A stretch of 64,000 nucleotides of DNA from an uncultured bacterium (GTDB taxonomy: Bacteria; Fidelibacterota; Marinisomatia; Marinisomatales; UBA1611), in assembly GCA_964586315.1 (NCBI GenBank), contig CAZPHE010000002.1, positions 31,706 to 95,705 on the forward strand, read 5' to 3'. The translations under genes and the position numbers were made by a program. Below, in pieces: positions 4,307 through 60,305 of this stretch. A model generated the notes under the pieces. The model saw nothing but the letters and a program-made list of their open reading frames with translations, was not told the origin of the DNA and did not search any database. Position 1 is the first letter of the stretch; each line of letters opens with the position of its first letter.

Positions 4307-4476
4307 TAAATATAAATATTGTCAATAACTCCATTATTAGTAAATTTACTCAATGAAAAAAAGAATGACCTTGAATTTCAATCAAGATTCTATTAAGTCA
4401 ATCTTTTTTCATGTGATTGAGATTATTGCACTCGGTAATATTCTCAACCAAAAAACCAAACCAAGGAGGTATCGGC

Positions 4477-4686
4477 ATGGCTGATGTTACTTCAACCGTA
4501 TCAAATGCAGCATCTGGTGTAGTGGGTGTAATTAAAGCGCTCATTGTGTTGTTTGTTTTTGTCAACATTATTTATTCCACGGGTTTTGATCCTATTGGCG
4601 GAATTGTAGATCTTGTAAATACATTTTTAGATGGTGGATTTGCTGGGCTACTTGCTTTGTTGGTTTTTCTCTCGTTTCTGGCATAA
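4477..4686 (+). CDS. small 2-TM membrane protein, paralog A (69 aa from the ATG at 4477)
   Basis: The track ORF starts at 4417 with TTG, but the ATG at 4477 is preceded by a strong SD, 'ccAAGGAGGtatcggcATG'. Two hydrophobic helices. C-terminal motif 'DGGFAGLLAL' is shared with the next ORF. Confidence 0.6.
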   Translation: MADVTSTVSNAASGVVGVIKALIVLFVFVNIIYSTGFDPIGGIVDLVNTFLDGGFAGLLALLVFLSFLA

Positions 4687-4752: not shown

Positions 4753-4968
4753 ATGCTTAAAGGCATGCAACAGGTAAATGAATGGCTAGCTCAGCTTACT
4801 GACTTAGCTAAAACCTTAGTCGTGATCGGTATTATTGTAGGAATTCTGTTTGATGATTACTTTGGTGTTATCGCAGGATTAGGACGTGTTATGTCCCAGT
4901 TTGGCGATGCAGGATTTGCAGGAATACTAGCTCTGGCTATTTTAGTAATGTGGTACGAAAAAAAATAG
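4753..4968 (+). CDS. small 2-TM membrane protein, paralog B (71 aa)
   Basis: SD 'acAGGAGGaaactATG'. Aligns with paralog A (K-x-L-[IV]-V ... F ... G ... F-x-D-[GA]-GFAG-[LI]-LAL). Followed by a GC-rich intrinsic terminator. Confidence 0.65.
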   Translation: MLKGMQQVNEWLAQLTDLAKTLVVIGIIVGILFDDYFGVIAGLGRVMSQFGDAGFAGILALAILVMWYEKK

Positions 4969-4988
4969 ATTGAAATTGAAATCAGAGA

Positions 4989-5019
4989 AAGCGCCCCGAT
5001 TCGGGGCGCTTTTGTTTTA
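4989..5019 (+). terminator. Rho-independent terminator
   Basis: 'aaGCGCCCCgattCGGGGCGCttttgtttt': a GC-rich 7-8 bp stem, short loop and T-tract immediately after the small-protein pair. Confidence 0.85.
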
Positions 5020-8625: not shown

Positions 8626-8701
8626 TGTAATTTTAGTCTACTCTGCTATTCCTGCCGAGTGTATTAATTTTTCTAGAATATATATAATAGGTGTAAAATA
8701 T

Positions 8702-9952
8702 ATGAATCTTAATGAATTACAATCTTTGCATATTCGTGAACTCACAGAATTAGCTCAAAAATTAAATGTTTCTGGCAATATTGCAGGCCTTAATAAACAA
8801 GAACTAACAATTAAAATTCTTGAAGCAAATGCAAAAAAAGAAGGGGCTTTTTCTGCTCGTGGTGTTTTAGAAGTTATGCAAGATGGATATGGGTTTCTTC
8901 GTTCGCCAGATTTTAATTATATGCCTGGGCCAGATGATATTTATGTTAGCCCATCTCAGATTAAACGATTTGGTTTAAAAACTGGGCACTTGGTATCAGG
9001 GCAAATAAGACCTCCAAAATCTAAAGAACGTTTTTATGCTTTATTAAAAGTAGAAACTGTTAATTCATCGCCAATTGATAAACTTCAGGATATAATATTA
9101 TTTGATAATTTCACTCCATTATATCCAGAAGAAAAATTCAATTTAGAAACAAAGTCTAAAGATTTATCTATGAGGATTATGGATTTAATATCTCCTATAG
9201 GTAAAGGGCAAAGAGGTCTGATTGTTGCCCAGCCAAAAACAGGAAAAACAATTCTAATGCAAAAATTAGCTAATTCTATTAGTGAGAATCATCCAGAAAC
9301 AAAAAGAATTGTTTTGTTAATAGATGAACGACCTGAAGAAGTGACAGATATGAAAAGGAATGTTAATGCAGAAGTCATCAGTTCTACATTTGATGAGCCA
9401 CCTGAGCGTCATGTGTCTGTAGCAGATATGGTTCTCCAAAAGGCAAAAAGGATGGTTGAATATGGAGATGATGTAGTGATTTTACTTGATAGTATCACAC
9501 GTTTAGCAAGGGCTCATAATGCTGTTATTCCACATAGTGGGAAAATTCTCTCAGGTGGAGTCGATTTTAATGCACTCAAAAAACCAAAACAATTTTTTGG
9601 TGCAGCGCGAAATACAGAGGAGGGCGGAAGTTTAACTATTGTTTCAACGGCACTTATTGATACTGGCAGTAGGGCTGATGAAGTGATTTTCGAAGAATTT
9701 AAAGGCACTGGTAATATGGAGCTTGTTCTTGATCGTAGATTAAGTGATAGAAGAACTTATCCAGCTTTCGATATAATTCGTTCAGGAACTAGAAAAGAAG
9801 AATTACTTCTAGGTCGTAAAGAATTAGGTAGAATGTGGATTCTTCGTAAACTTCTCAATGACATGAAGGTTGAAGAAGCTATGGAATTCATGCAAGATAG
9901 AATGAAACGTACAAAATCTAATGATGAATTTCTTGATACAATGAGCCAATAA
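8702..9952 (+). CDS. rho: transcription termination factor Rho
   Basis: '[21 protein letters not shown]' Rho N-terminal helix bundle, an OB-fold region, Walker A 'AQPKTGKT' and '[20 protein letters not shown]'. I use the ATG at 8702 rather than the track start at 8594. Confidence 0.95.
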
Positions 9953-9976
9953 TAATTTTGGAATTTAATATGTAAA

Positions 9977-11050
9977 ATGAATGAGAAAAGTACTGATATT
10001 AAATCAGTTGTAGTAAAAATTATAACTGATAAACCTGTTCGAAAAACACCTTATCAAGTTAAAGGTGTCTTTATGCGCCAATATCCTGATGAACCGATTA
10101 TTCCAATGTTGGATGGGTCATACCGTGATAAATTTTTATATCCTCGTGTCCAAGTTAAAATATTAAATGAGCAAATTTATATTATTGGAATCCACGAAGG
10201 TGTAGATACTATTTTGTCTGCAACTAAAAAATTTAAACAATTTGATTTTGGAAACATAACTTTTACAGTTCAAGATTATGATATAGAAAGATTAAACAAT
10301 CAATTTATCCCGTCTGATCGTCCCTTAAGATATCGTTTTATCACTCCTTGGGTTGCACTTAATCATATGACAGGTGGAAAGTATCGGCTTTTGAGCAATA
10401 AAGAAAAACCATCATATTTAAATAAACTTTTGGGTCAAAATCTAATTTTTTTAGCAAATGAAGTTGGGATAAACATTGAAAAAGAAATTTTTTCAAAAGT
10501 TAAAGTTAAAAGCCTGTTTCCAAAACCAATTGATGAAAATAAATGGGGCGCATTTAGGGGGGAATTCAAAACAAATTTTGTTTTACCTAATTATATTGGT
10601 GTGGGTAATGGCATCACTCGTGGTTTTGGTACAATTTATAGCATGTTTAACCCAGAATCTTTTTCTTTTGATGAAACACAATTAAAAAAAGATGTAAAAA
10701 GCCAAGCTGAAGAAACCATTAATGATAAAGAAATGGAAAAAATATCAGTCTCGGATGTGCCAAAACCAAAAAGGAAACGTCTTCAAACTAAATATAATAA
10801 AGGCAAAAAGAATAAAGGAAAAAGTTTTCAAGCAGATCAAAGTTATAAAAGGGGAAAAAATTACCACAAAAGAAAACGTTCTAAATCGAAAGAGAAAGGG
10901 CATTCTAATAATTACCGATTTCGAAAATCTGGGAATATTTTTTCAGAAGAATATGATATAGAAGAAGTTAATAATATTAATAAAGAAGGATCTAAAGACG
11001 ACCAAAGATTTAACACAGAACAACATCATAAAAAGCAACATAAGTTTTGA
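9977..11050 (+). CDS. Cas6-like (RAMP/ferredoxin-fold, DUF2276-type) protein with a ~130-aa Lys/Arg-rich C-terminal tail; no CRISPR context
   Basis: Glycine-rich loop 'GVGNGITRGFG' fits the Cas6 consensus G-h-G-x5-G-h-G near the end of a ~225-aa globular part. 'YPRVQVK' resembles the Cas6/DUF2276 'YP-x-IQ-x-K' strand. The tail is 'KPKRKRLQTKYNKGKKNKGK...KRKRSKSKEK'. Confidence 0.5.
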   Translation: MNEKSTDIKSVVVKIITDKPVRKTPYQVKGVFMRQYPDEPIIPMLDGSYRDKFLYPRVQVKILNEQIYIIGIHEGVDTILSATKKFKQFDFGNITFTVQDYDIERLNNQFIPSDRPLRYRFITPWVALNHMTGGKYRLLSNKEKPSYLNKLLGQNLIFLANEVGINIEKEIFSKVKVKSLFPKPIDENKWGAFRGEFKTNFVLPNYIGVGNGITRGFGTIYSMFNPESFSFDETQLKKDVKSQAEETINDKEMEKISVSDVPKPKRKRLQTKYNKGKKNKGKSFQADQSYKRGKNYHKRKRSKSKEKGHSNNYRFRKSGNIFSEEYDIEEVNNINKEGSKDDQRFNTEQHHKKQHKF

Positions 11051-12249
11051 TTTATAAACTTTCTGAAAGAGTAAAAAAAATACAACCATCTTTTACTCTA
11101 CAAATGGCAACAGTAGCAGCTAATATGCGTTCTAAAGGGATAGATATAATTAATTTTTCTGTAGGAGAGCCAGATTTTAATACACCATCCCATATTATAC
11201 ATGCTGGTCAATTAGCGATGGATGAAGGATATACAAAGTATACAGCAGGCCCCGGTATGATAGAATTTAGAAAAGCTATCTGTGAAAAACTGATGCGAGA
11301 AAATGGTATTATTTATGATCCTGAAGATATATTAGTCTCAAACGGGGAAAAACAGAGTTTATACACAGCGTGCCAGGCATTGTTTGGGCGTGGAGATGCT
11401 GTATTTGTATGTAGACCTTATTGGGTATCTTTTCCTGAGTTTATAAGACTTTCTGATGCGGAGCCGATTTTTATTAATACATTAGCACAACAGAATTTTG
11501 AACCAGACTTTGAGAATCTTTGTTCTAAGATTAAAAACAATGTGAAAGGCATTATTATTAACTCACCATCAAATCCAACTGGTGGAATTTGGAGTGCAGA
11601 AGCAATAATTAAATTATTAAAAATTGCTAAAGATCATAATTGGGTGATTATATCCGACGAATGTTACGAACGTTTAGTTTATGAAGGAGATTTCATTAGT
11701 ACTGAAAAATTAAATCGAGATCATAGTATTAATGCATTAGTAGTTACTTGTATGAGTCTTTCAAAAACTTATGCAATGACAGGTTGGCGTATTGGTTACG
11801 CTGCAGGACCAAGAGAAATTATTAAGTCAATGTCAAAACTCCAAGGTCAGGCAACCTCTTGCGCAAATTCAATAGGTCAAATGGCTGGTATAGCAGCCTT
11901 AAAAAGTAGTCAAAAATGTGTAGAAAAAATGAAAAAATCATTTTTAGAAAGAAGAGATTTAATGGTTAATCTTTTAAATCAATTGCCAGGTGTTTCGTGT
12001 TCTACGCCTCAGGGCGCGTTTTATGCTTTTCCTGATTTTAGCTCATATTTAAATAAATTAGGTGATGGTAAGTTATTGAAAGATACTTTTGATATTTCAG
12101 AGTATATTCTACGTTCTGTTAATGTGGTTACTGTCCCCGGTGATGGTTTTGGAAGCAAGGGGCACATACGTTTTTCTTATGCCACTAGTAAAGATATAAT
12201 AAAACATGGCATTGAACAAGTTGCCATTGCTTTAAAAAAAATTGTTTAA
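11047..12249 (+). CDS. aspartate/aromatic aminotransferase (class I PLP-dependent)
   Basis: 'NFSVGEPDF', 'INSPSNPTG', PLP-lysine motif 'SLSKTYAMTGWRIGY'. TTG start overlaps the upstream stop. Confidence 0.85.
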   Translation: MIYKLSERVKKIQPSFTLQMATVAANMRSKGIDIINFSVGEPDFNTPSHIIHAGQLAMDEGYTKYTAGPGMIEFRKAICEKLMRENGIIYDPEDILVSNGEKQSLYTACQALFGRGDAVFVCRPYWVSFPEFIRLSDAEPIFINTLAQQNFEPDFENLCSKIKNNVKGIIINSPSNPTGGIWSAEAIIKLLKIAKDHNWVIISDECYERLVYEGDFISTEKLNRDHSINALVVTCMSLSKTYAMTGWRIGYAAGPREIIKSMSKLQGQATSCANSIGQMAGIAALKSSQKCVEKMKKSFLERRDLMVNLLNQLPGVSCSTPQGAFYAFPDFSSYLNKLGDGKLLKDTFDISEYILRSVNVVTVPGDGFGSKGHIRFSYATSKDIIKHGIEQVAIALKKIV

Positions 12250-12263
12250 TTTAGGAGTACCCA

Positions 12264-12512
12264 ATGAAAAAAGATGTTCATCCAAGTAATTATAGATTGG
12301 TTGTATTTAAAGATACATCTTGCGAATATGCTTTTTTAACTAAGTCAACAGTAGATACAAAAGAAACAATTAAGTGGGATGATGGTAATGAATACCCTTT
12401 ATTTAAGATTGAAATTTCAAATAAATCTCATCCGTTTTTTACAGGTAAACAGAATCTTGTTGATACAGCTGGACGTATAGAAAAATTCAATAAAAAATAC
12501 GGTCGTAAATAA
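12264..12512 (+). CDS. rpmE: 50S ribosomal protein L31, type B (no Zn-ribbon cysteines)
   Basis: '[17 protein letters not shown]...[25 protein letters not shown]'. SD 'taGGAGtacccaATG'. Confidence 0.9.
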
Positions 12513-12662
12513 ACAAGTTGTTTTCTAATTTGGCTCTTTAAAGTTAACGCTAATCTAACTGAGTCAATTTTGTTAAAAGGCGTGAAAATGAAACCAATTA
12601 CTTTCTTTTGTGAAAGTGAATTTCTAGGCAGTACAATTATATGTGCATTGAATACTTGTTAG

Positions 12663-12698
12663 ATTATTATAAATATTTCATTGAATATTTATAATAAT
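12663..12698. repeat. perfect 15-bp inverted repeat (hairpin) with a 6-nt loop in the rpmE-prfA spacer
   Basis: 'ATTATTATAAATATT tcattg AATATTTATAATAAT'. The arms at 12663-12677 and 12684-12698 are exact reverse complements. It is AT-only and has no adjacent T-tract. Confidence 0.8.
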
Positions 12699-12804
12699 GC
12701 TCATCAAATATTAAACACGTCTATTTTTTGGGAGAGCACACTTTTTTATTGTATTTAATTAAAGAATCTGAATTGTGGAATAAACATATTATTGAGGTTA
12801 TAAA

Positions 12805-13872
12805 TTGAGAAAAAAACTCAATGCGATTATAGAAAAGTATAACAATCTTTCGGAAAAAATGGCAGATCCAGCTATTTTATCAAACCAAAACCAATTAACG
12901 TCAATTGCAAAAGAACATCGTTCATTAGAAAATGTTGTTAAGATAAGTAAAGCTTATATTAATGTATTAGATCAGCTGGATGAAGTGAAAGAAATGCTTA
13001 ATGAAAAAGATGACGAATTACGTAAAATGGCAGAAGAAGAACTAAATGTCTTAGGAATAAAAAAATCTAGATTTGAAGAAAAAATTAAATTATTATTATT
13101 ACCTAAAGATCCAAATGATGATAAAAATCTTATCTTAGAGATTCGAGCCGGAACAGGAGGTGATGAAGCCGCACTTTTTGCATCAGATTTATTTAGGATT
13201 TATATGCGTTATGCAGAAAGAAAAAATTGGAATTATAAAATAATGGATTCTTCTGAAACGGGAATTGGAGGGATTAAAGAAGCAATTGTATCTATTCAAG
13301 GAAATGGAGCGTTTGGATTATTAAAATACGAAAGTGGAGTACATCGTGTTCAAAGAGTTCCTAAAACTGAAACTAGCGGTCGTGTGCATACTTCTGCTGC
13401 TACTATTGCAGTTCTTCCAGAAGCTGAAGATGTAGATATCGAAGTAAATGATTCAGACCTAAAAATTGATACATATCGCGCGAGTGGCGCCGGTGGTCAG
13501 CATGTAAATAAAACAGAATCTGCAATTAGAATCACCCATATACCTACGGGTATGGTAGTAACCTGTCAAGATGAATCATCACAGCATAAAAATCGAGCTG
13601 CGGCCCTGAAAGTATTAAAAGCAAGATTGCTCGTTTCTGAACAAGAAAAAGCTGCTGCAGAACGCGCTGCAGAGCGTAAAAGTTTGGTGTCAACAGGAGA
13701 TAGATCTGCAAAAATTAGAACTTATAATTTTCCACAAGGGAGAGTGACGGATCATCGAATTAATTTTACATCATATCGTTTGAATGAAGTATTAGACGGT
13801 GATCTTAATGAAGTAATTGAAAAACTTAAAATTGCAGAACAGCAAGAGCTGATGGCTTCTGATATTTATTAG
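12805..13872 (+). CDS. prfA: peptide chain release factor 1
   Basis: GGQ motif 'SGAGGQHVNKTESAIRITHIPTG' and RF1-type length and N-terminus. TTG start. Confidence 0.95.
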   Translation: MRKKLNAIIEKYNNLSEKMADPAILSNQNQLTSIAKEHRSLENVVKISKAYINVLDQLDEVKEMLNEKDDELRKMAEEELNVLGIKKSRFEEKIKLLLLPKDPNDDKNLILEIRAGTGGDEAALFASDLFRIYMRYAERKNWNYKIMDSSETGIGGIKEAIVSIQGNGAFGLLKYESGVHRVQRVPKTETSGRVHTSAATIAVLPEAEDVDIEVNDSDLKIDTYRASGAGGQHVNKTESAIRITHIPTGMVVTCQDESSQHKNRAAALKVLKARLLVSEQEKAAAERAAERKSLVSTGDRSAKIRTYNFPQGRVTDHRINFTSYRLNEVLDGDLNEVIEKLKIAEQQELMASDIY

Positions 13873-13912
13873 AAATTATAATGTTCAACCAACAGATTGT
13901 TATATTATAATA

Positions 13913-14767
13913 ATGTCAGAATTATGGCGTATTATTGATTTAATTAAATGGGCAGAATCCTATTTTAAAAAAAAAAATATTAGTAATCCAAAATCAGAAA
14001 TTGAATGGCTTTTATGCTCTTTATTAGGATATAGTAAGTTAGATCTTTATTTAAAATTTGAAGAACAGATAACTAAAGCTAACCTTACCATTTTACGAAG
14101 TTGGGTAAAACGAAGACTCAATAATGAACCCCTACAATATATAACTAAATCATGCTATTTTTATGGTAGAAAATTTTTTATTACACCAGATGTCCTTATT
14201 CCTAGACCAGAGACAGAACGAATAGTTGACATAGCAATAAAAAAAATAAATGAAATTAAATCCCCTCAAATTTTAGATATAGGCACAGGTTCTGGTTGCA
14301 TTGCGTCTACGTTAGCATTGGAACGCCCTGATTCTAATGTTTGGGGTATTGATATTTCACCTAATGCTATAAAAATAGCTAATGAAAATAAATCTATTTT
14401 TTTATTAAATAATGTTGAGTTTTTAATTATGAATATTTTGAAAGAGCATCCAAAAAGAAAATTTGATTTGATAGTTTCAAACCCTCCTTATATTCCAAAA
14501 GAAGATATAAGAAATCTTATGAAAGATGTGAAAAATTTTGAACCTCATATTGCCCTAACAGATCAAAAAGATGGGCTTACATTTTATAGACGTTTATCAA
14601 AAATTGGTAAAACTAATTTAAAGCTAGGAAGCTGGATAATAATAGAAGTAGGACAAGGAGATCATCCCGAAGCTTCAAAATCTTTATTTGATCAATCACA
14701 ATATTTAAATGTTTCACTTATTAAAGATTATAATGGAGACAATCGAGTATTGATTGCCCAAGTTTAA
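13913..14767 (+). CDS. prmC: release-factor glutamine N5-methyltransferase
   Basis: SAM motif 'ILDIGTGSGCIA' and catalytic 'SNPPYIP'. Conserved prfA-prmC synteny. Confidence 0.9.
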   Translation: MSELWRIIDLIKWAESYFKKKNISNPKSEIEWLLCSLLGYSKLDLYLKFEEQITKANLTILRSWVKRRLNNEPLQYITKSCYFYGRKFFITPDVLIPRPETERIVDIAIKKINEIKSPQILDIGTGSGCIASTLALERPDSNVWGIDISPNAIKIANENKSIFLLNNVEFLIMNILKEHPKRKFDLIVSNPPYIPKEDIRNLMKDVKNFEPHIALTDQKDGLTFYRRLSKIGKTNLKLGSWIIIEVGQGDHPEASKSLFDQSQYLNVSLIKDYNGDNRVLIAQV

Positions 14768-52977: not shown

Positions 52978-55900
52978 ATGAGTAAAAAGCAAAAAGATAT
53001 TGTAATTATTGATGATTACAGAATTGTAAAAATTCTTAATAAAAATTTTACAAAAAAGATCCTAAAATCTTTTTCTGATCAGCCTAAAACAGCCACCGAA
53101 ATAGCGAATTCAATTTCATTCCCAAAAGAAAAAATTTATTATCACTTAAAAAATCTCCTAAGCAACAATATTCTTTTTATCAAAAAAACTGTAAAGGTAA
53201 AAGGTATAGAACAAAAATATTTTTTACCTACCGGAAAATCTTTTCAAATAAAAAGTAATAATAATGAACCTTATGTTTCAAATGAAATAAATAACCAAGT
53301 TCAATTGGAAAAAGAAAATCAGGAAAAAATAAATAATACAATTGAAAATAAAAATTTAAGTCATAACCAACATGTAAGAAAAATTATTGATAGGAGAAGG
53401 AATACAAATCGAAGAACAATTCAAAGGAGATTTTTAAAACCCCGTCGTGGAAATCAAAACCAAAAATTTTTACGTAAAAACAAAAGAAAAAATTCTGAAA
53501 GAAGAATCAATGATGAAAATAGAATTAATAATAAAAGAAGAAAAGTCTCTGAACGTCGAACAAATTATGATTTTGGTGTTGATATCCCAAAGAAAAAGTA
53601 TAAACAAAAACGGTATAAACCATATCCCCCCCAAAAAATAACACATAAAAATTTATTACTTCAACTGAATGGTGTAAAAAATGCCATGACTTTTGTACAA
53701 TCTAATAATATAGTAACCTTTTTGTATTGTACCTTAAAACAAAATGGTTTTGAAATAATACATATTAACAATTATCGGTTACCTATAAAAATAAAAGGTC
53801 ACCAAATAAAAACTCTGCCTGAATTAATTATCAACATCTATAATCAATTTATAAATCCTAGATCAAAGAAGAAAACCTTTCTTGCCATCCAATCTGATAA
53901 TTATCAATGTGAAATGACCTATTTTATAGGTAAAGGTAAGAGCGATAAACTTTTTCGAAAAAACATAATGGAAACGTTAAATGAAGCTTACAGGGTAAAA
54001 AAGGAAAATAGCTTGATGGATTTTATTAGGTATTATGATGGTCAAAAAAATTCTACGGTATGCTATTCTTCAAAAAAATCACAGATAGAAGAAGACTATA
54101 AAAATCTAGATGCTGCAGGGATTCCTTTAAGGTATATAACTTCAATCCCTAAAATATTGAATAACATATACACCTACTATAATTTAGAAAAAAATAATAA
54201 AACATCACTCCTTATATATATAGGTCACATTAAAACACATACAGTGTTCACTTTTGGCGATAGAATAGTTGAATCCCGTGAAATTGATAAAGGACTTAAT
54301 TTTTTTACCGAACCTTTGGCCGAATTATCACTAACTAGGGTCATTCATGATCAGGCTTTGCATGAAGCAACACATTTTTTATCATATTATGGTTTAAGCC
54401 CAGAATCTTCAAACACAAATATTCAAGATGGATTCCCTTTTAAAAAGGCAAAAGCGATTATAAATCATTTATCCCTTAGTTTTCTCTATGATATAAAAGA
54501 CTCCATTCAATATTTTGAAAGCATTCTAATAAAAGAAAGGTATACTGAAAAACCAATTTCAAAAATTTTTATCACGGGCCCAGGAAGTCACATAAAATAT
54601 CTTGACAAGACAATAGAAGAAATGTTTCGTGTTTCTGTAAAGAATTTTTCTCAAATCTGTGATGCACTACTTAAGGGTAATAAAAATCTAAATGGACCTG
54701 TATATAACAGATTTAAAGAAAAATTTTTATATAGAAAACAAGAAAGTTCTGAATCAAGTTTAAAAGAATTAAAACAAAAAATAAAGAACCATGAAGATGC
54801 CATTGAATCAACACAGAGTCCTGAAAGCGCGAAGTACAGTTTAGCACGTTTAGAAATTGAAAAAAATTCTAAAATCAAATCTATTGATTCGGCTAGTAAA
54901 AATTTAAGCTCTACAGCCCAAGAATTTAAAGATCTGAAAGAGAAATATGTTAAAACACAAGAGACCTTAGGATCTGATCTAAAATCAATTAATTCCCAAG
55001 TTGAAAATCTTAGTGAAGAATTGATTTATAAGTATAGTCAATATGATGAGATCAATAAAAAAATATCAGAATTAGAATTTGAAATAGACCAAGAAAAGAA
55101 TAAGAAAGATAAAATTCAACGCGAAGAAAAAAATCGCTATGGATCACAAATTAAAGCTGTGGCACAATCTCGAGCAAAATTAACAGATGATAAAGATTAT
55201 ATTGAACAAGAAATTGATGAACTTGAATCTAGTATAATAAAATATCAAGATTTATTTCACCAAAAAAATTATAAAATACAAAATGGACAGGATGAGATCG
55301 CTGTATTTGAATATTTAAAAAGCTCAATACAAAATGTTGCAAATATTTTTAAACGGTCTTTCCTAGTTCATTTAAAATCTTTAGAAGATCTTAATAAAGA
55401 TGATGTAAATACACTTCAAAAAGCTGGATATTTTATCACTAGTAATACAAAAAGGATTGATGAAATAAGAGAATCATTTAATGCTTTTATCTCTGGAGAG
55501 ACTAGTATTAATCCAGATCAAATGATAGATAATGAAAACGGAATCGCAATAAAGGAAAAATTGTTGGATATATTGAGCTTGGTTCAAAAGGCACCTGATG
55601 ACTTAATACATTTAAAAAATTTATCAACCACTATTGTAAAAATTAATGAAGATCAAAGTGATCTTAAAATGCAGAAGGAAAAACTCTCAAATCAAATAAT
55701 AAAATCAAAGAACAATATTAGAGAGAATCAGGGAACACGTTTTTCTATTAAAAGAGATATTGAAATCCATAAAGAAAGTTTAACAGAAAAAAGTAAGGAC
55801 AGGTCAGAAAGAATTGATGTACTGAATTATATTCGTGAGAGAATAGAGTTGAATGATGAATTTGATTATCATACAAAGCTTCTAAAAGAAATACAGCCTC

Positions 55901-58900
55901 AGAAAAATAAAAAGATAAAAAAATTAAAAAGTTTAAATAATCAAATTCAGGAAACCAAAGGCTCTATTAAAAGATTAGATCAATCATTTGAAGGATTAGA
56001 AATTGAAAATGCTGAAGTAAACCACTCTTGCCAAAAAAAGAAAAGAGACCTAAACGATCAAATCGAATTTTTCACAAAAGATACTGAACAAATAAAAAAC
56101 AAATTCAATGATAATGTAGATAAAGGAGATGCAATATCTATAGAAATCTCTAATGGGAAAACTTATATAGATCAATTAGAAAAACACTGTGTAAATAAAA
56201 AAGTAGAATTGGAAGATCTAAATCAAAAAAAGGTGCCAATTGTTAATAAATCCATAGAAGATAAGAAGCAAATAATTAAGGCATATGAAAAGAAATTAAA
56301 AATTTTAGATAGAGAACAAAATCAAAAAACATCTAAGGCTCAAAAAACTAAAAAGATCACAATTAAAGCCTTTTTTAAAAAAGAATTAGAAATGCTTAAA
56401 AAGGATTACAAAAACCTCGAAAAAAGTATTGATAAAATTAAGAAAGAGAAAGAAAAGGCATTACTTGAAAAGAATAATGCCACTGTATCCTTAGGTAATA
56501 TTAAAAAGAAAAAAATACCTCAGATAACATTATTGAAAAAACAAATAAAGAATTGGGAGATAGATATCAAGCGCGGACGAAGAATCCAAGAAAGATTAGA
56601 TCAACTTGAAATTAAAAAAGCACATTGGGATCAATTATTAGAAACTGAACAAAAAAATCATACAGAACAAATTGAATCTTTAGAAAAAAGTATAAATAGG
56701 AAGAGTTCTGATCAATATCTTGGTTTTCTGAAGGATGGTTTAAATCGTTTTAATAATGATGGTAATTTAGATGAGATTGCAAAAAAAATGTCACAAGAGA
56801 GTATCGATCTAGATCTTGAAACAATAAATAAGCTCAATATCAATTTTAAAAAATTCAAACAAACACATAATACATTTTTGAAAGGGTATAAAAAAAGAAG
56901 CAAAGAAATTTTACTAAAGCTAAAACCTTTTGGTGGAAAGAAAAAAATAATCCTAGCAAAAATTAAGAGCGCAAAAGATAAGCTTAGAAGCGCAGAATCT
57001 TTAATGCAGGAATATGTTAATAGACTGAATAAAAAGGTTAAAATTTTAAATGAAAAGAGAGAGATATTTTTAGAAAAAAAAGAAAATGCACGATCAAAGA
57101 TTGCAGATATCAAATTACAAATAAGACAAATTCCTGAAAAGGAGAACCGTGCAATTATTGATGTTGAAAAACAGTTAGTACAAATACCATTAGATATTGC
57201 TAAAGATAAAATGAATTTGGAAAATCAAAAGAAAGAAGATTTATTAGCAGTTGATATTTGGTTAGCGAATCAAGATAATATGTTAGACATTAATAAAGCA
57301 GAAGACAAGATTGTGTATTATTTTAATGAAATCGAAAAAAATAATAGAAAAATTGAAGAACTGAAAAACAAACAGAAAAAAATACTAGGTACAAAATTGT
57401 CCTTAGAGAAAGAGTTAGAAAGCATATCAAAAAAAATTACAGCTTGTCATTCAATGGGTAATGAAATTGAAGAACAATTCAAAGTAGATAGTTCTGAATT
57501 AAAAGAAAAGATTGCTAACAACAGAGGAGAATATGCTGCTTTTGAAAAACAACTTGACGAATTGAAGAATCAAAAAGAAAATTTAGAACTTGATATTGAA
57601 AAGATAGAAAAAGAATTCAAAACATCAGATGTTATTGTAAAAAAGACAAAAAAAGATATCTCTAACCATGAACAGATCTCCGATAGTATTAATATAAATA
57701 ATAATGAACACAAATCTAATCCGAGGGAATATCGGGAATATCTATCTGAAGTTGAAAAAGATATATTAAATGATATAGAACATTCAGAAAAAATGATCAC
57801 AGAAATAAATCGTGCTTTAGACACAATGGATAATGATATATCAATTCTCAATAGTACGATAAACTTGAATACAAATGATTTGGAATTGTATGAAAGAGAT
57901 TTTTCTAGAGTAGAGACATTGATCGAAAATAACAAACAACATCTAAAAAAAATATCCACAGAACACCAGAAATCATTAAATAGCATAGTAAGAATTAAAG
58001 ACTTATACCCACCAAGTAAGATTATGCTTAATGAACGTATATCTAATCTTTACACGCTAATAGAGTTAAAAGTAAAAGATAAGGATAATTTGGAACAGGA
58101 GCTTGACTCGTTAGATGAAAAACTGAAAAACAAAAGAATTGAAATAGCAATGATAGATCAGGAAATATCAAAAATTCATGAAGAAATGAAACATGCACTT
58201 GAATATTCATTTCATGAAAAAGATGAAGAATCTGTAGAGAATAAATGGAAGTGGGAAATTGGGAATTATAAAATGAAGACCTATCTTGATATCGCAACTC
58301 TTAAAACAGATTCTAAAGATTTATATTGCCAGATTACAGAAGCCGAAGAGACAATAGCAGAATTAAAACAGAAACAATCATCCGTTAATAATCTCCTTTC
58401 TGAATCTGAAAAAATAAATCTTAATAAAATAAAAAAGATGGAAGATACTTGTACACGATTAGAGCTTCAAATAACACGAGAAAAGAATGAATTGAATGAA
58501 ATTGAAAAAAAGGTAAATCAGTTAGAGAATTTGCCCATCAACTATGGTAATCGGATCGAAGCTCTTAAAGTAGAACTAAGGAATTTTAAAGATCAGGAAG
58601 CGGAGTATGAATTATTGCTGAATGACTTAGGTAGATCAATAGAATCTATAGAAAAGGAGTCAGATAAAATTATTAAAAGTCGTAACACGATTAAAGATAA
58701 TACAATAGATCTTGATTACATGGCGAATCTTGGTTTATTGATGGACCCATATTCAAAACTAAATCTCTTGCCGGATACACCTAAGAAAGACTTTAACTAT
58801 TTTAGATCAAATCAAATTTTTCAAAGAGCCATACTTATTTTAGTAACAGTTTTTTCTCTAGGAGCGTTTGCCCATCGGACTGAAATAAAGCCATTGAAGA

Positions 58901-59334
58901 CCCAACTGCCAATAAAGCAATCTGAGCTAACTCTTCTGAATATGCGTCAAAAAATGAAAGAAGTTGTCAAAAATAAAAATGTGCTTTCCAACAATTTCAG
59001 CAAGTTTATATACGATGATGAAAAAATATCTTCTGATATAGTCTCTTTATTGAAATATCTTAGTAAAAATATACCGAAGAATTATAAAGTAATTAATTTA
59101 ACTATTGACAAAAATAAGCCGGATTTTCTCGATGAAAGTACTGATTATGAATTTTCCAGTTTAAATATTACTCTAAATGGGTTTTTCGAAAACAGTTTAG
59201 AAAAATCATCCAGATTAGCCAACAAATTAAAAACATCCTTAGAAGAAAGTAATTTGTTTAAAAGTGTTGCTTTGAGTCATGGGAAAAAACAAAAAAAATT
59301 AAAAACGGAATACACTATCCAATTAGTTTATTAG
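52978..59334 (+). CDS. giant (2118 aa) fusion protein: wHTH, Arg-doublet repeat, PilM-like actin-fold domain, ~1350-aa coiled coil, TM helix and PilN-like periplasmic domain
   Basis: One uninterrupted 6357-nt ORF. The segment-by-segment motif reading is given in the sub-features. It heads a PilO-like, PilP-like and secretin gene series. Confidence 0.75.
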   Translation: MSKKQKDIVIIDDYRIVKILNKNFTKKILKSFSDQPKTATEIANSISFPKEKIYYHLKNLLSNNILFIKKTVKVKGIEQKYFLPTGKSFQIKSNNNEPYVSNEINNQVQLEKENQEKINNTIENKNLSHNQHVRKIIDRRRNTNRRTIQRRFLKPRRGNQNQKFLRKNKRKNSERRINDENRINNKRRKVSERRTNYDFGVDIPKKKYKQKRYKPYPPQKITHKNLLLQLNGVKNAMTFVQSNNIVTFLYCTLKQNGFEIIHINNYRLPIKIKGHQIKTLPELIINIYNQFINPRSKKKTFLAIQSDNYQCEMTYFIGKGKSDKLFRKNIMETLNEAYRVKKENSLMDFIRYYDGQKNSTVCYSSKKSQIEEDYKNLDAAGIPLRYITSIPKILNNIYTYYNLEKNNKTSLLIYIGHIKTHTVFTFGDRIVESREIDKGLNFFTEPLAELSLTRVIHDQALHEATHFLSYYGLSPESSNTNIQDGFPFKKAKAIINHLSLSFLYDIKDSIQYFESILIKERYTEKPISKIFITGPGSHIKYLDKTIEEMFRVSVKNFSQICDALLKGNKNLNGPVYNRFKEKFLYRKQESSESSLKELKQKIKNHEDAIESTQSPESAKYSLARLEIEKNSKIKSIDSASKNLSSTAQEFKDLKEKYVKTQETLGSDLKSINSQVENLSEELIYKYSQYDEINKKISELEFEIDQEKNKKDKIQREEKNRYGSQIKAVAQSRAKLTDDKDYIEQEIDELESSIIKYQDLFHQKNYKIQNGQDEIAVFEYLKSSIQNVANIFKRSFLVHLKSLEDLNKDDVNTLQKAGYFITSNTKRIDEIRESFNAFISGETSINPDQMIDNENGIAIKEKLLDILSLVQKAPDDLIHLKNLSTTIVKINEDQSDLKMQKEKLSNQIIKSKNNIRENQGTRFSIKRDIEIHKESLTEKSKDRSERIDVLNYIRERIELNDEFDYHTKLLKEIQPQKNKKIKKLKSLNNQIQETKGSIKRLDQSFEGLEIENAEVNHSCQKKKRDLNDQIEFFTKDTEQIKNKFNDNVDKGDAISIEISNGKTYIDQLEKHCVNKKVELEDLNQKKVPIVNKSIEDKKQIIKAYEKKLKILDREQNQKTSKAQKTKKITIKAFFKKELEMLKKDYKNLEKSIDKIKKEKEKALLEKNNATVSLGNIKKKKIPQITLLKKQIKNWEIDIKRGRRIQERLDQLEIKKAHWDQLLETEQKNHTEQIESLEKSINRKSSDQYLGFLKDGLNRFNNDGNLDEIAKKMSQESIDLDLETINKLNINFKKFKQTHNTFLKGYKKRSKEILLKLKPFGGKKKIILAKIKSAKDKLRSAESLMQEYVNRLNKKVKILNEKREIFLEKKENARSKIADIKLQIRQIPEKENRAIIDVEKQLVQIPLDIAKDKMNLENQKKEDLLAVDIWLANQDNMLDINKAEDKIVYYFNEIEKNNRKIEELKNKQKKILGTKLSLEKELESISKKITACHSMGNEIEEQFKVDSSELKEKIANNRGEYAAFEKQLDELKNQKENLELDIEKIEKEFKTSDVIVKKTKKDISNHEQISDSININNNEHKSNPREYREYLSEVEKDILNDIEHSEKMITEINRALDTMDNDISILNSTINLNTNDLELYERDFSRVETLIENNKQHLKKISTEHQKSLNSIVRIKDLYPPSKIMLNERISNLYTLIELKVKDKDNLEQELDSLDEKLKNKRIEIAMIDQEISKIHEEMKHALEYSFHEKDEESVENKWKWEIGNYKMKTYLDIATLKTDSKDLYCQITEAEETIAELKQKQSSVNNLLSESEKINLNKIKKMEDTCTRLELQITREKNELNEIEKKVNQLENLPINYGNRIEALKVELRNFKDQEAEYELLLNDLGRSIESIEKESDKIIKSRNTIKDNTIDLDYMANLGLLMDPYSKLNLLPDTPKKDFNYFRSNQIFQRAILILVTVFSLGAFAHRTEIKPLKTQLPIKQSELTLLNMRQKMKEVVKNKNVLSNNFSKFIYDDEKISSDIVSLLKYLSKNIPKNYKVINLTIDKNKPDFLDESTDYEFSSLNITLNGFFENSLEKSSRLANKLKTSLEESNLFKSVALSHGKKQKKLKTEYTIQLVY
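53005..53247 (+). other. winged-helix (ArsR/MarR-like) DNA-binding-type domain of the giant protein (aa ~10-90)
   Basis: 'IVKILNKNFTKKILKSFSDQPKTATEIANSISFPKEKIYYHLKNLLSNNILFIKKTVKVKGIEQKYFLPTG' has the helix-turn-helix plus beta-wing pattern of ArsR-type wHTH domains. Confidence 0.55.
53374..53559 (+). other. Arg-doublet repeat region of the giant protein (aa 133-194)
   Basis: 'RKIIDRRRNTNRRTIQRRFLKPRRGNQNQKFLRKNKRKNSERRINDENRINNKRRKVSERR': RR doublets spaced 3-5 residues apart. Confidence 0.7.
53641..54657 (+). other. PilM-like (actin/HSP70-fold) domain with degenerate nucleotide-binding motifs (aa ~222-560)
   Basis: Colinear with PilM blocks. 'AMTFVQSNNIVTFLYCTLKQNGFEIIHINNYRLP' corresponds to the 'GIDISSTSVK' region. 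'LLIYIGHIKTHTVFTFGDRIVESREIDKGLNFF' corresponds to 'VVDIGATMTTL...GG..LT'. 'KIFITGPGSHIKYLDKTIEEMF' corresponds to 'IVLAGGTA'. Confidence 0.6.
54745..58740 (+). other. ~1330-residue K/E/N/I/L-rich predicted coiled coil (aa ~590-1921)
   Basis: Heptad-like charged/hydrophobic periodicity and sparse Pro/Gly by eye. One candidate break, 'LKPFGGKKK', lies near aa 1317. Confidence 0.6.
58741..59334 (+). other. pilN: complete PilN-like module (aa 1922-2118): Met, 'LNLLP' peptide, TM helix and periplasmic domain
   Basis: 'MDPYSKLNLLPDTPKKDFNYFRSNQIFQRAILILVTVFSLGAFA' contains the PilN-type N-terminal [IL]NLLP motif (nt 58759-58773) and a TM helix (nt 58828-58872). The 197-aa length equals a typical free-standing PilN. 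Confidence 0.65.
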
Positions 59335-59340
59335 GAAATT

Positions 59341-59895
59341 ATGAATCAGAAAGAAAAATATTTTAGCTTTTTAGGCCTGACAATTGTATTAATAATTGGC
59401 TATATGTTTGATCGCAATCAGATGATAAAGAAGGTTAAAGAATACGAGATGGATATTTATAAGATTGATATAAAATTAAAAGAAGGTTCTGAGATCATGG
59501 ATGAAGTCAATACTATCAGACAAAACTTAATCAAAAATATAAACACATTAAGCTCTTATGCAATATCTGGAAGCCAACTATTGGATGAGATACAAAATGT
59601 GAAAACCTTGGCTAATAGATTGGATATTAATATTAAAGATTTAGAGATTGATCCAAGAAATACATTGCCTGAAACATACAAAAATATAAGTACAGAGAAT
59701 ATCAACTTAGAACGACAGACACTAAGTTTTGATTTAGTGGGCGATTTTCTTGATATAGGAAATTTTGTTGAGACTCTAGAAAATAGCGCTTCACCACTTA
59801 AACTAAAAAATTGTTCTATTTCCTTGGACAGCTTAGACCCTAGAGGGGTAATTGCAAAACTACAGTATGTTGCCTATGGAGGAGAAGAACTATGA
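59341..59895 (+). CDS. pilO: PilO-like type IV pilus alignment-complex protein
   Basis: 184 aa: an N-terminal TM helix 'FSFLGLTIVLIIGYMF', a coiled-coil segment, then a ferredoxin-like C-domain ('LSFDLVGDFLDIGNFVETLENSASPLKLKNCSISL'). Confidence 0.6.
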   Translation: MNQKEKYFSFLGLTIVLIIGYMFDRNQMIKKVKEYEMDIYKIDIKLKEGSEIMDEVNTIRQNLIKNINTLSSYAISGSQLLDEIQNVKTLANRLDINIKDLEIDPRNTLPETYKNISTENINLERQTLSFDLVGDFLDIGNFVETLENSASPLKLKNCSISLDSLDPRGVIAKLQYVAYGGEEL

Positions 59896-60305
59896 TAAAA
59901 GAAAAAATTATATTTGGATCATTCATTATAATTATTTCTTTAGTTGTTTTGGAATTTTTGCCAAAGATATTTCCTGCTTTAAATTTTTTTTTGCGCTCAG
60001 ATAAAATAAATATTGAATCAAACATTAAAAAATCAGATCAGAATAATACAGAGATTTCAAAACCGGTATCCCTCTTCATTTCTGAATGGGGGTCTGATAT
60101 TTTTCATGATCGTAGTAATGTTTATAATAATTGGTTCCAATTAACAGGCATTACTCAATTTGAAAATAATTATAAGGCAATTATAAATGGAGAGATTCTC
60201 ATGGAAATGGATCGAGTAAGAGGATTTACCGTAAAAAAAATTACTGGTAACAAGGTGGTATTAAAAAGAAATGAGTACATCGTAACACTTAAACTGGAAA
60301 AATAA
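59892..60305 (+). CDS. PilP-like small membrane-anchored protein
   Basis: 137 aa: an N-terminal hydrophobic anchor and a C-terminal beta-sandwich-like 'FQLTGITQFENNYKAIINGEILMEMDRVRGFTVKKITGNKVVLKRN'. Positioned between the PilO-like and secretin genes, with a 4-nt overlap upstream. Confidence 0.45.
   Translation: MIKEKIIFGSFIIIISLVVLEFLPKIFPALNFFLRSDKINIESNIKKSDQNNTEISKPVSLFISEWGSDIFHDRSNVYNNWFQLTGITQFENNYKAIINGEILMEMDRVRGFTVKKITGNKVVLKRNEYIVTLKLEK

What the first reader, a model, noticed from the sequence alone, without database searches (positions are those of the whole stretch)
9977..11050. Orphan Cas6-like RAMP protein with a Lys/Arg-rich tail embedded in a housekeeping operon (rho, this gene, aminotransferase, rpmE, prfA)
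Seen:
- A ~225-aa globular part ends with 'GVGNGITRGFG'. This matches the Cas6 glycine-rich loop consensus G-h-G-x5-G-h-G exactly.
- It also has a 'YPRVQVK' strand reminiscent of Cas6/DUF2276 proteins.
- A ~130-aa disordered basic tail follows (KPKRKRLQTKYNKGKKNKGK...KRKRSKSKEK).
- The gene starts 24 nt after rho, and its stop overlaps the aminotransferase start.
- I saw no CRISPR repeats or other cas genes in the window.

Established: Cas6 enzymes are metal-independent endoribonucleases that recognise structured repeat RNA through this G-loop.

Inference: this looks like a Cas6-fold RNA-binding protein or nuclease exapted for a non-CRISPR function, possibly housekeeping RNA processing or a ribosome- or transcript-associated role, given the basic tail and its neighbours.
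Basis: partly seen in the sequence, partly recalled or inferred. Interest (0 to 1): 0.6.

Follow-up and report, generated by a model that had tools for sequence, protein, structure and literature searches.

The report
Rho-linked, histidine-less Cas6b relative
A gene descended from the CRISPR RNA-cutting enzyme Cas6b has lost its catalytic histidines, sits directly behind the transcription terminator gene rho throughout the ocean phylum SAR406/Fidelibacterota with no CRISPR system in any stretch examined, and so looks like a CRISPR part recruited into core RNA housekeeping.

Summary
ORF 9977..11050 (+, 357 aa) is a true Cas6b homologue:
- Pfam Cas6b_N and Cas6b_C both match above cut-off.
- The best solved structure is M. 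maripaludis Cas6b (E 1e-25).
- The AlphaFold model matches that structure (TM 0.81-0.85).

New findings:
1. The two catalytic histidines of Cas6b (H38/H40) are absent, both here and in every member of its clade. Nearly all canonical Cas6b proteins surveyed keep an H-x-H motif.
2. The gene lies directly downstream of rho in the 20 marine genomes where that side is on the contig, and in 8 of 8 deeply diverged relatives (27-45% identity). It stays there even where every other neighbour has changed. All named sources are Fidelibacterota (SAR406/Marinimicrobia) or unclassified FCB-group bacteria.
3. The window and about 540 kb of related sequence hold no CRISPR array, and no cas gene appears next to any member.
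4. The tail occurs only in the marine subclade. It is modular: an acidic linker, a fast-evolving basic block, and conserved short motifs including an invariant-type C-terminus, FNTE(K/Q)HHKxQHKF.

Best reading: a CRISPR-independent, probably non-cleaving RNA-binding protein that is co-expressed with Rho and likely works with it. That function is inferred, not shown. I found no literature describing this protein.

The parts
8702..9952 (+). rho (transcription termination factor Rho, 416 aa), first gene of the conserved rho / Cas6b-like pair
   Evidence: Pfam Rho_N, Rho_RNA_bind and ATP-synt_ab match. It lies directly upstream of the Cas6b-like gene in every related locus whose upstream side is on the contig.
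9953..9976 (+). 24-nt rho / Cas6b-like intergenic spacer with no terminator-like site
   Evidence: Sequence read directly. The terminator scan finds nothing here. The spacer is 18-45 nt in related marine loci.
9977..11050 (+). Cas6b-like ORF, 357 aa (stop codon included)
   Evidence: The identical protein (P0001) is on 5 public contigs, the longest 382 kb.
9995..10642 (+). Globular Cas6b domain (aa 7-222: Cas6b_N plus Cas6b_C, double ferredoxin/RAMP fold)
   Evidence: Pfam match. AF2 pLDDT mostly above 90. Foldseek finds 4z7k/4z7l at E down to 5e-18 with TM 0.81-0.85. dN/dS is 0.06.
10094..10126 (+). Remnant of the catalytic loop (aa 40-50, PIIPMLDGSYR). It occupies the place of the H38-N-H40 loop of M. 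maripaludis Cas6b and contains no histidine.
   Evidence: Alignments. The catalytic roles of H38, H40 and Y47 come from PMC3479195. The first His of the protein is H73.
10598..10630 (+). Glycine-rich loop GVGNGITRGFG (aa 208-218)
   Evidence: G208, G210, G216 and G218 are invariant across 35 clade members.
10643..10762 (+). Acidic linker (aa 223-262, pI 4.3). It starts with the conserved motif MFNP(D/E)SFxF(D/N)E.
   Evidence: dN/dS is 0.26.
10730..10780 (+). Conserved motif (L/M)ExISxSDVPKP(K/R)R(K/R) (aa 252-268), modelled as partly ordered with a strand at aa 254-256
   Evidence: Tail alignment. pLDDT is 83 and 76 for the two blocks covering aa 251-270. In about 540 kb searched, the motif occurs only in these tails, in 18 of the 20 marine loci that include the tail, plus the window.
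10763..10942 (+). Basic low-complexity block (aa 263-322: 24 K+R in 60 residues, pI 11.3). Predicted disordered and variable in length.
   Evidence: dN/dS is 0.62 and median identity 26%, while the composition is kept. pLDDT is below 50 from aa 282.
10922..10966 (+). Conserved motif R(S/T)GR(V/I)FSEEFDIE (here RKSGNIFSEEYDIEE, aa 316-330)
10997..11047 (+). Conserved C-terminal motif DDx(R/K)FN(T/S)E(K/Q/E)(H/Y)HKxQHKF (aa 341-357)
   Evidence: dN/dS is 0.12 and identity 76%. The motif is present in all 20 marine loci that include the gene's 3' end, plus the window. A strict pattern found it in at least 148 of 200 long-tailed homologues.
11047..12249 (+). Class I/II aminotransferase gene whose start overlaps the Cas6b-like stop. 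It is the downstream neighbour in many but not all lineages.
   Evidence: It is absent downstream in L025, L026 and L034. In L022 and L023 other genes follow directly: the aminotransferase lies about 7 kb downstream in L022 and is not seen within 10 kb in L023.
12264..14767 (+). rpmE (12264..12512), prfA (12805..13872) and prmC (13913..14767): the housekeeping context

Best explanation
This is a CRISPR-independent descendant of the Cas6b RNA endonuclease. It became fixed early in the phylum Fidelibacterota (SAR406 / Marinimicrobia) as the second gene of a two-gene rho unit.

Shown:
- It keeps the Cas6b double-RRM fold and the glycine-rich RNA-binding loop.
- It has lost the H-x-H catalytic dyad.
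- It is under strong purifying selection.
- It is always placed 12-151 nt downstream of rho.

Inferred:
- It binds RNA through the Cas6 surface without the canonical histidine-driven cleavage.
- It is made together with Rho.
- It works with Rho or on Rho's substrates, for example by recognising particular RNA sequences or structures and either handing them to Rho or shielding them from it.

In the marine subclade that includes this window, the protein gained a 100-145-aa tail of several parts (135 aa here). The fast-evolving Lys/Arg block would add non-specific RNA affinity. The four conserved short motifs, above all the C-terminal FNTE(K/Q)HHKxQHKF, look like docking sites for a partner that is still unknown.
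For: Homology and fold:
- Pfam Cas6b_N and Cas6b_C match above cut-off.
- Solved Cas6b 4z7k matches at E 1e-25.
- The AF2 domain has pLDDT above 90 and matches 4z7k/4z7l at TM 0.81-0.85.

Loss of the catalytic dyad:
- Mm H38 aligns to P43, H40 to a gap or Leu, and Y47 to F53.
- H38, H40 and Y47 were shown by mutagenesis to matter for cleavage (PMC3479195).
- All 22 members of the clade in the survey have no His in this loop. 68 of 78 canonical representatives have two or more His there.
- No His is conserved anywhere in the domain across 35 members.

RNA-binding scaffold kept:
- The G-loop glycines and the YPxxQ, YxFxTPW and GxFxGxF motifs are invariant.

Selection:
- dN/dS is 0.06 for the domain.

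Link to rho:
- The order murI-folC-rho-cas6bL holds in the 19 marine loci that reach that far upstream, and rho is directly upstream in a 20th whose contig is cut within rho.
- rho is directly upstream in 8 of 8 distant lineages: P0137, P0145, P0156, P0157, P0174, P0273, P0295 and P0316, at 27-45% identity.
- In L026 and L034 every other neighbour differs.
- No terminator lies between the two genes.

No CRISPR context:
- No array was found in about 543 kb or in the window.
- No cas Pfam hit occurs in the window.
- A canonical His-bearing relative (P0170) sits inside a type III-A cas operon.

Clade:
- The rho-linked sequences form one bipartition in a neighbour-joining tree.

Tail:
- Conservation is modular, and the motifs occur nowhere else in about 540 kb.
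Against: - No experiment or structure prediction links the protein physically to Rho. Gene adjacency is the only evidence for that link.
- Losing the histidines does not prove loss of cleavage. S. solfataricus Cas6 lacks the canonical His and still cuts RNA (PMC3652601).
- No RNA ligand was found. The rho leader shows no supported conserved structure.
- Bootstrap support for one rho-linked clade is weak, 78 of 200.
- No whole genome could be scanned for CRISPR.
- Rho itself looks fully canonical and has no obvious docking insertion. This rests on direct reading of the sequence and the Pfam match.
Confidence: 0.6

Rival explanations
1. It is still an active, metal-independent endoribonuclease. 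It would use a non-histidine active site (conserved Arg, Lys or Tyr such as R50, Y55, R57 and Y119) and act as a housekeeping RNA-processing enzyme, for example processing operon transcripts or stable RNAs.
For: Cas6 active sites are plastic. SsoCas6 lacks the canonical His and remains active (PMC3652601). Single His mutants of Mm Cas6b keep considerable activity (PMC3479195). The G-loop and several polar residues near the loop are conserved. The domain is under strong purifying selection.
Against: The double H38A/H40A mutant of the closest characterised enzyme loses most of its activity. Both positions are lost here, and Y47 is Phe in this protein. No replacement His is conserved. No candidate substrate was identified.
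Confidence: 0.22
2. It is a ribosome- or translation-associated RNA-binding protein. Its functional link would be to the downstream genes (rpmE, prfA, prmC) rather than to rho, with the basic tail acting like a ribosomal-protein extension.
For: It sits in a cluster with L31, RF1 and PrmC. The basic disordered tail resembles rRNA-binding extensions; this comparison rests on general knowledge and was not tested.
Against: Tail-less members are the majority outside the marine clade. The rpmE/prfA neighbourhood is lost or displaced in L022/L023, L025, L026 and L034, while rho adjacency is kept in all of them.
Confidence: 0.08
3. It is a dispersed, trans-acting Cas6 that serves a CRISPR-cas locus elsewhere in the genome.
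For: NCBI's pipeline names several members 'CRISPR-associated endonuclease Cas6'. Type III systems often use a Cas6 supplied in trans (PMC12669027).
Against: The gene holds a fixed position behind rho across a whole phylum and its divergence tracks that of its neighbours, unlike mobile and patchy cas genes. The catalytic dyad is lost. No array or cas gene was found in the window or in about 540 kb of related loci.
Confidence: 0.03
4. It is a decaying relic of a former cas gene with no current function.
For: The catalytic residues are lost. The protein evolves faster than its neighbours: 48-67% identity where Rho keeps 75-94%.
Against: dN/dS is 0.06 for the domain and 0.12 for the C-terminal motif. 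The ORF is intact in all loci, and the protein search found 1275 homologues in public data.
Confidence: 0.01

Closest known systems
Cas6b of Methanococcus maripaludis (MmarC5_0767; PDB 4z7k/4z7l), the type I-B crRNA-processing endoribonuclease
   Same: Same Pfam domains (Cas6b_N, Cas6b_C), same double-RRM fold (TM 0.81-0.85), and the same G-rich loop, YPxxQxK and YxFxTPW motifs.
   Different: Identity is only about 24-26%. H38/H40 are absent and Y47 is Phe. It is not next to cas genes or an array but behind rho. It carries a 135-aa tail that Cas6b lacks.
Cas6 enzymes without the canonical catalytic histidine (S. solfataricus Sso1437)
   Same: A Cas6 fold that lacks the histidine once thought essential (PMC3652601).
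   Different: Sso1437 is CRISPR-associated and still cleaves repeat RNA. Whether the protein here cleaves anything is unknown.
Known CRISPR-derived, non-defence or array-less modules (Streptomyces cas5-cas6-cas7-cas8 with a STAND NTPase, haloarchaeal HRAMP, CRISPR-associated transposons), as reviewed in PMC8730458
   Same: A Cas or RAMP protein recruited outside canonical adaptive immunity.
   Different: Those are multi-gene effector derivatives, mostly linked to defence or mobile elements. This is a single Cas6b-type gene, inherited vertically inside a core housekeeping operon across a phylum. Neither review checked mentions such a case.
Rho accessory proteins and modulators (NusG, Rof/YaeO, phage P4 Psu, Hfq); cited from general knowledge, not tested here
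   Same: Small proteins, some with RNA-binding folds, that tune Rho. The proposed role here is analogous.
   Different: There is no sequence or fold relationship. None of them is a RAMP, and none is known to be encoded as a fixed rho-adjacent gene across a phylum.
C-terminal scaffold of RNase E; cited from general knowledge, an analogy for the tail only
   Same: A long disordered region with basic RNA-binding segments, interspersed with short conserved microdomains that recruit partners.
   Different: No homology. The partners of the motifs here are unknown.

Membership tests
Cas6b (Pfam PF17955 + PF17262; CRISPR-associated endoribonuclease Cas6, subtype I-B type) | Significant sequence match to both Cas6b domains | tested here: met
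   Cas6b_C scores 85.3 bits (cut-off 39.4) and Cas6b_N scores 41.1 bits (cut-off 25). PDB 4z7k matches at E 9.5e-26.
Cas6b (Pfam PF17955 + PF17262; CRISPR-associated endoribonuclease Cas6, subtype I-B type) | Double ferredoxin/RRM (RAMP) fold | tested here: met
   AF2 pLDDT is above 90 for most of aa 10-222. Foldseek's top hits are Cas6b structures (TM 0.81-0.85), followed by other Cas6 families.
Cas6b (Pfam PF17955 + PF17262; CRISPR-associated endoribonuclease Cas6, subtype I-B type) | C-terminal glycine-rich loop (GxGxxxxxGxG) | tested here: met
   GVGNGITRGFG lies at aa 208-218, and its four glycines are invariant in the clade.
Cas6b (Pfam PF17955 + PF17262; CRISPR-associated endoribonuclease Cas6, subtype I-B type) | Catalytic histidine dyad H-x-H (H38/H40 of Mm Cas6b) | tested here: not met
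   The corresponding positions are P43 and a gap or Leu, and aa 1-72 contain no His. All 22 clade members surveyed have no His in this loop, whereas 68 of 78 canonical representatives have two or more. The residues' role comes from PMC3479195.
Cas6b (Pfam PF17955 + PF17262; CRISPR-associated endoribonuclease Cas6, subtype I-B type) | Tyr47 that contributes to catalysis | tested here: inconclusive
   The position is F53 here and Phe or Tyr in most of the clade.
Cas6b (Pfam PF17955 + PF17262; CRISPR-associated endoribonuclease Cas6, subtype I-B type) | Encoded in or near a CRISPR-cas locus or CRISPR array | tested here: not met
   No array, CRISPR-DR Rfam hit or cas Pfam hit occurs in the 64-kb window. 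No array was found in the related loci fetched by then, L001-L031. Neighbours are housekeeping genes in all rho-linked loci. The whole genome could not be scanned.
Cas6b (Pfam PF17955 + PF17262; CRISPR-associated endoribonuclease Cas6, subtype I-B type) | Sequence-specific cleavage of CRISPR repeat RNA | not testable with these tools
   This needs an in vitro assay, and no candidate repeat exists.
Rho-associated factor (functional class, not a sequence family) | Conserved co-location and co-transcription with rho | tested here: met
   rho is directly upstream in 20 marine loci and 8 of 8 distant lineages. The gaps are 12-151 nt, and no terminator-like site lies in the gap in the window.
Rho-associated factor (functional class, not a sequence family) | Physical or functional interaction with Rho | not testable with these tools

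The most novel reading that the evidence does not exclude
The Cas6b-derived protein is a dedicated partner of Rho. It would give the terminator sequence- or structure-specific RNA recognition, or antagonise it, throughout the Fidelibacterota. That would be a CRISPR RNA-recognition module recruited into the core transcription-termination machinery of one of the ocean's most abundant bacterial phyla. In this reading the marine tail motifs tether it to Rho or to another RNA-handling partner.
Probability: 0.3. Interest if true: 0.85.

Novelty: new variant of a known kind. Interest (0 to 1): 0.66.

Why it matters
- Cas proteins recruited for non-defence roles are rare. The known cases are multi-subunit effectors or parts of mobile elements.
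- A single Cas6-type RNA-recognition protein, inherited vertically and fixed behind rho across a whole phylum, would be a clean example of a CRISPR component turned into housekeeping machinery. The reverse is also possible: a window on a pre-CRISPR RAMP.
- It would point to an unknown layer of Rho or RNA regulation in SAR406, a globally abundant and almost uncultured group.
- On the practical side, public annotation calls these proteins 'CRISPR-associated endonuclease Cas6'. That label probably misleads CRISPR censuses of marine metagenomes.
- A naturally cleavage-deficient, hairpin-binding Cas6 could also serve as an RNA-tethering tool.

Tried and rejected
1. Rho / Cas6b-like complex prediction.
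- No interface evidence could therefore be obtained.

2. RNA ligand in the rho leader.
- The marine loci share a short CTCC-N11-GGAG-like hairpin.
- RNAalifold finds no consensus structure.
- The leaders of deep lineages share nothing obvious.
- I dropped this as unsupported.

3. CRISPR-repeat-like RNAs. Rfam gave no hit at gathering scores or at E <= 1. The repeat and tandem-repeat finders and a k-mer array scan all found no array.

4. Tail motifs in other proteins. Six-frame regular-expression searches over about 540 kb found the motifs only in these tails.

5. A separate gene encoding the tail in tail-less genomes. None lies downstream in L022.

7. Literature. No paper in the searched library links Cas6 with Marinimicrobia/Fidelibacterota, with rho, or with solo inactivated Cas6b.

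8. NCBIfam gave no match.
Full report
**1. The observation**

The ORF at 9977..11050 (+) encodes 357 aa.
- It starts 24 nt after the rho stop codon.
- Its TGA overlaps the TTG start of a class I/II aminotransferase gene.
- rpmE, prfA and prmC follow.

**2. It is a genuine Cas6b homologue**

- Pfam matches Cas6b_N (E 2e-10) and Cas6b_C (E 4e-24), both above their curated cut-offs, over aa 7-222.
- The only meaningful hit among solved structures is M. maripaludis Cas6b, 4z7k, at E 9.5e-26.
- An AlphaFold2 model built from a 35-sequence alignment has pLDDT above 90 for most of aa 10-222.
- Foldseek against the PDB puts Cas6b 4z7k/4z7l first (E down to 5e-18, target TM 0.81-0.85). Type IV Cas6/Csf5 and the Pyrococcus and Thermus Cas6 proteins follow.
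- NCBIfam gives no match.

**3. The catalytic dyad is gone**

In Mm Cas6b, H38 and H40 complement each other. The double mutant loses most of its activity, and Y47A reduces activity (PMC3479195). In the alignments:
- H38 corresponds to P43.
- H40 corresponds to a gap or Leu.
- Y47 corresponds to F53.
- The protein has no histidine before residue 73.

I surveyed 100 full-length representatives of 50%-identity clusters.
- All 22 sequences that group with this protein have no His in the loop. Most carry (P/S)(M/F/Y)(L/I)(D/N)G in its place.
- Of the 78 canonical Cas6b representatives, 68 have two or three His in the loop, 6 have one and 4 have none.
- No His is conserved anywhere in the domain across 35 clade members.

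The RNA-binding scaffold is invariant: the G-loop glycines, YPxxQ, YxFxTPW and GxFxGxF.

One caveat applies. Cas6 active sites are plastic, and S. solfataricus Cas6 lacks the canonical His yet still cleaves (PMC3652601).

**4. Who has it, and where it sits**

- The word-indexed search found 1275 homologues. The closest are 55-68% identical, cover the full length including the tail, and are labelled Candidatus Marinimicrobia or Neomarinimicrobiota where a name exists.
- The genome scan returned 21 species-level loci, and every one whose record names a lineage is Marinimicrobia. Nineteen keep murI-folC-rho-cas6bL; a twentieth is cut within rho, and one begins inside the gene itself. Wherever the contig continues, aat and rpmE follow, and then prfA-prmC-ubiA in most.
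- The Cas6b-like protein is 48-67% identical where Rho is 75-94% identical, so it evolves faster but in parallel with its neighbours.
- More distant, tail-less relatives of 220-264 aa are 27-38% identical to the window protein, or 28-45% to P0137. I looked up eight of them: P0137, P0145, P0156, P0157, P0174, P0273, P0295 and P0316. In all eight, rho is the gene directly upstream, with gaps of 12-151 nt.
- In L026 the downstream genes are ubiA and dnaE. In L034 both flanks are unrelated, with lspA downstream. In L022 and L023 other genes follow the pair directly. Only the rho / Cas6b-like pair is constant.
- Source names for this wider group are Fidelibacterota, Neomarinimicrobiota and 'FCB group'. 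Fidelibacterota is the valid name for SAR406 / Marinimicrobia (PMC11652737).
- By contrast, P0170, a canonical His-bearing relative at similar distance, lies inside a cas10-csm2-5-csm6-cas6-cas2-cas1 operon.
- A neighbour-joining tree recovers the 22 rho-type sequences as one bipartition. Bootstrap support is weak at 78 of 200. The tail-bearing marine subclade gets 194 of 200.

**5. No CRISPR context**

- The window has no CRISPR-like array.
- It has no Rfam hit, even at E <= 1.
- None of its roughly 48 substantial ORFs matches a cas family. They are housekeeping genes or have no match.
- A k-mer scan of the window plus the 31 loci fetched by then, about 543 kb, found no array.
- Whole genomes could not be scanned.

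**6. Selection and operon structure**

- dN/dS is 0.06 for the globular domain. That rules out a decaying relic.
- There is no terminator-like site between rho and the gene.
- The spacer is 18-45 nt across the marine loci.
- Rho itself is canonical. It has the Rho_N, RNA-binding and ATPase domains, is 416 aa long, and keeps the usual [14 protein letters not shown] and ERFYALLKV primary-site motifs.

**7. The tail**

It exists only in the marine subclade. Deeper lineages end at or shortly after the G-loop, some with a short acidic extension. It has several parts:

| Region (aa) | Character | dN/dS | Conserved motif |
|---|---|---|---|
| 223-262 | acidic linker, pI 4.3 | 0.26 | MFNP(D/E)SFxF(D/N)E at its start |
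| 252-268 | modelled with pLDDT about 80 and a short strand, so probably packed on the domain | not computed separately | (L/M)ExISxSDVPKP(K/R)R(K/R) |
| 263-322 | basic block of variable length, 40% K+R, pI 11.3; pLDDT below 50 from aa 282 | 0.62 | none; composition kept |
| 316-330 | short motif | not computed separately | R(S/T)GR(V/I)FSEEFDIE |
| 341-357 | C-terminus, 76% identity | 0.12 | DDx(R/K)FN(T/S)E(K/Q/E)(H/Y)HKxQHKF |

The C-terminal motif is present in every marine locus that includes the gene's 3' end, the FSEEFDIE-type motif in 19 of the 20, and the DVPKP motif in 18. None of the three occurs anywhere else in about 540 kb of six-frame translation. This pattern, a basic low-complexity RNA-binding segment plus conserved short motifs in a disordered region, is typical of scaffold or adaptor tails. 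The partners are unknown.

**8. Mechanism**

Shown:
- Cas6b fold and G-loop kept.
- Catalytic dyad lost.
- Strong purifying selection.
- Obligatory position behind rho.
- No CRISPR context in any sequence examined.

Inferred:
- The protein binds RNA through the Cas6 surface, probably without canonical cleavage.
- It is made from the same transcript as Rho.
- It acts with Rho or on Rho's substrates.

It is established that gene order conserved across deep divergence, while other neighbours reshuffle, is a strong indicator of functional and often physical coupling. That is the only basis for the Rho link. I put about 0.6 on the overall statement and about 0.3 on a dedicated Rho partnership.

The main rival is an active nuclease with a non-histidine site (0.22). 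The others are a translation-linked role (0.08), a trans-acting CRISPR component (0.03) and a relic (0.01).

**9. Comparison with what is known, and novelty**

- By descent it belongs to the Cas6b family. It fails two features that define a CRISPR-associated Cas6 endonuclease: the catalytic dyad and association with a CRISPR-cas locus.
- Public annotation calls members 'CRISPR-associated endonuclease Cas6', 'Cas6b C-terminal domain-containing protein' or 'hypothetical protein'.
- Reviews of CRISPR exaptation and the 2025 classification update do not mention a solo Cas6b. In profile building, hits outside cas islands are treated as false positives.
- Searches combining Cas6 with Marinimicrobia, Rho or inactive paralogues found nothing relevant.
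- I therefore rate it a new variant of a known kind, of real interest to CRISPR-evolution and Rho specialists. Its function remains unproven.

**10. What failed**

- The search for an RNA ligand in the rho leader found nothing.
- The afdb50 library was unavailable.

Noticed in passing
window 52978..59334 (+), with 59341..59895, 59892..60305 and 60306..61994: A 2118-aa ORF has no Pfam match at E 1e-6. It is followed by two small ORFs without matches and a secretin (PF00263). This may be a giant secreted or pilus-associated protein cluster.
   Followed up: no
window 12513..12804; compare L022 18861-19841, L030 3036-3935 and L036 8244-8756: Several related loci carry a DUF1385 gene between rpmE and prfA, and other marine loci have a gap of about 1 kb there. 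The window has only 292 nt of non-coding sequence, and L001, L008, L009, L012 and L016 also have short gaps. This looks like lineage-specific loss of DUF1385.
   Followed up: partly
window 4417..4686, 4753..4968 and 4987..5013: Two small hydrophobic ORFs (89 and 71 aa) lie in the gap between the glycosyltransferase and amidase genes. The strongest terminator-like hairpin of the region follows them, with 12 pairs, 8 of them G-C.
   Followed up: no
window 8626..8701 (rho leader) and the same region of L001-L020: A short CTCC-N11-GGAG-type hairpin and a TGTAAnTT box just after the folC stop recur in marine loci. RNAalifold gives no consensus structure, and deep lineages share nothing obvious.
   Followed up: partly
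whole window: The 64 kb has no Rfam match at all, even at E <= 1, so none of the 4227 Rfam families, tRNA and riboswitch families included, reached that threshold. The gene content is otherwise ordinary housekeeping: dnaE, ligA, carAB, glnA and ABC transporters.
   Followed up: no
P0384 (325 aa): One Cas6b-like homologue also carries a PF13347 transporter-family hit. This is probably a gene-call fusion on a 1.1-kb contig.
   Followed up: no
L036 6514..7761: In one freshwater or aquatic lineage a DEAD-box helicase gene is inserted between the aminotransferase gene and rpmE. That places another RNA-handling gene in the same cluster.
   Followed up: no
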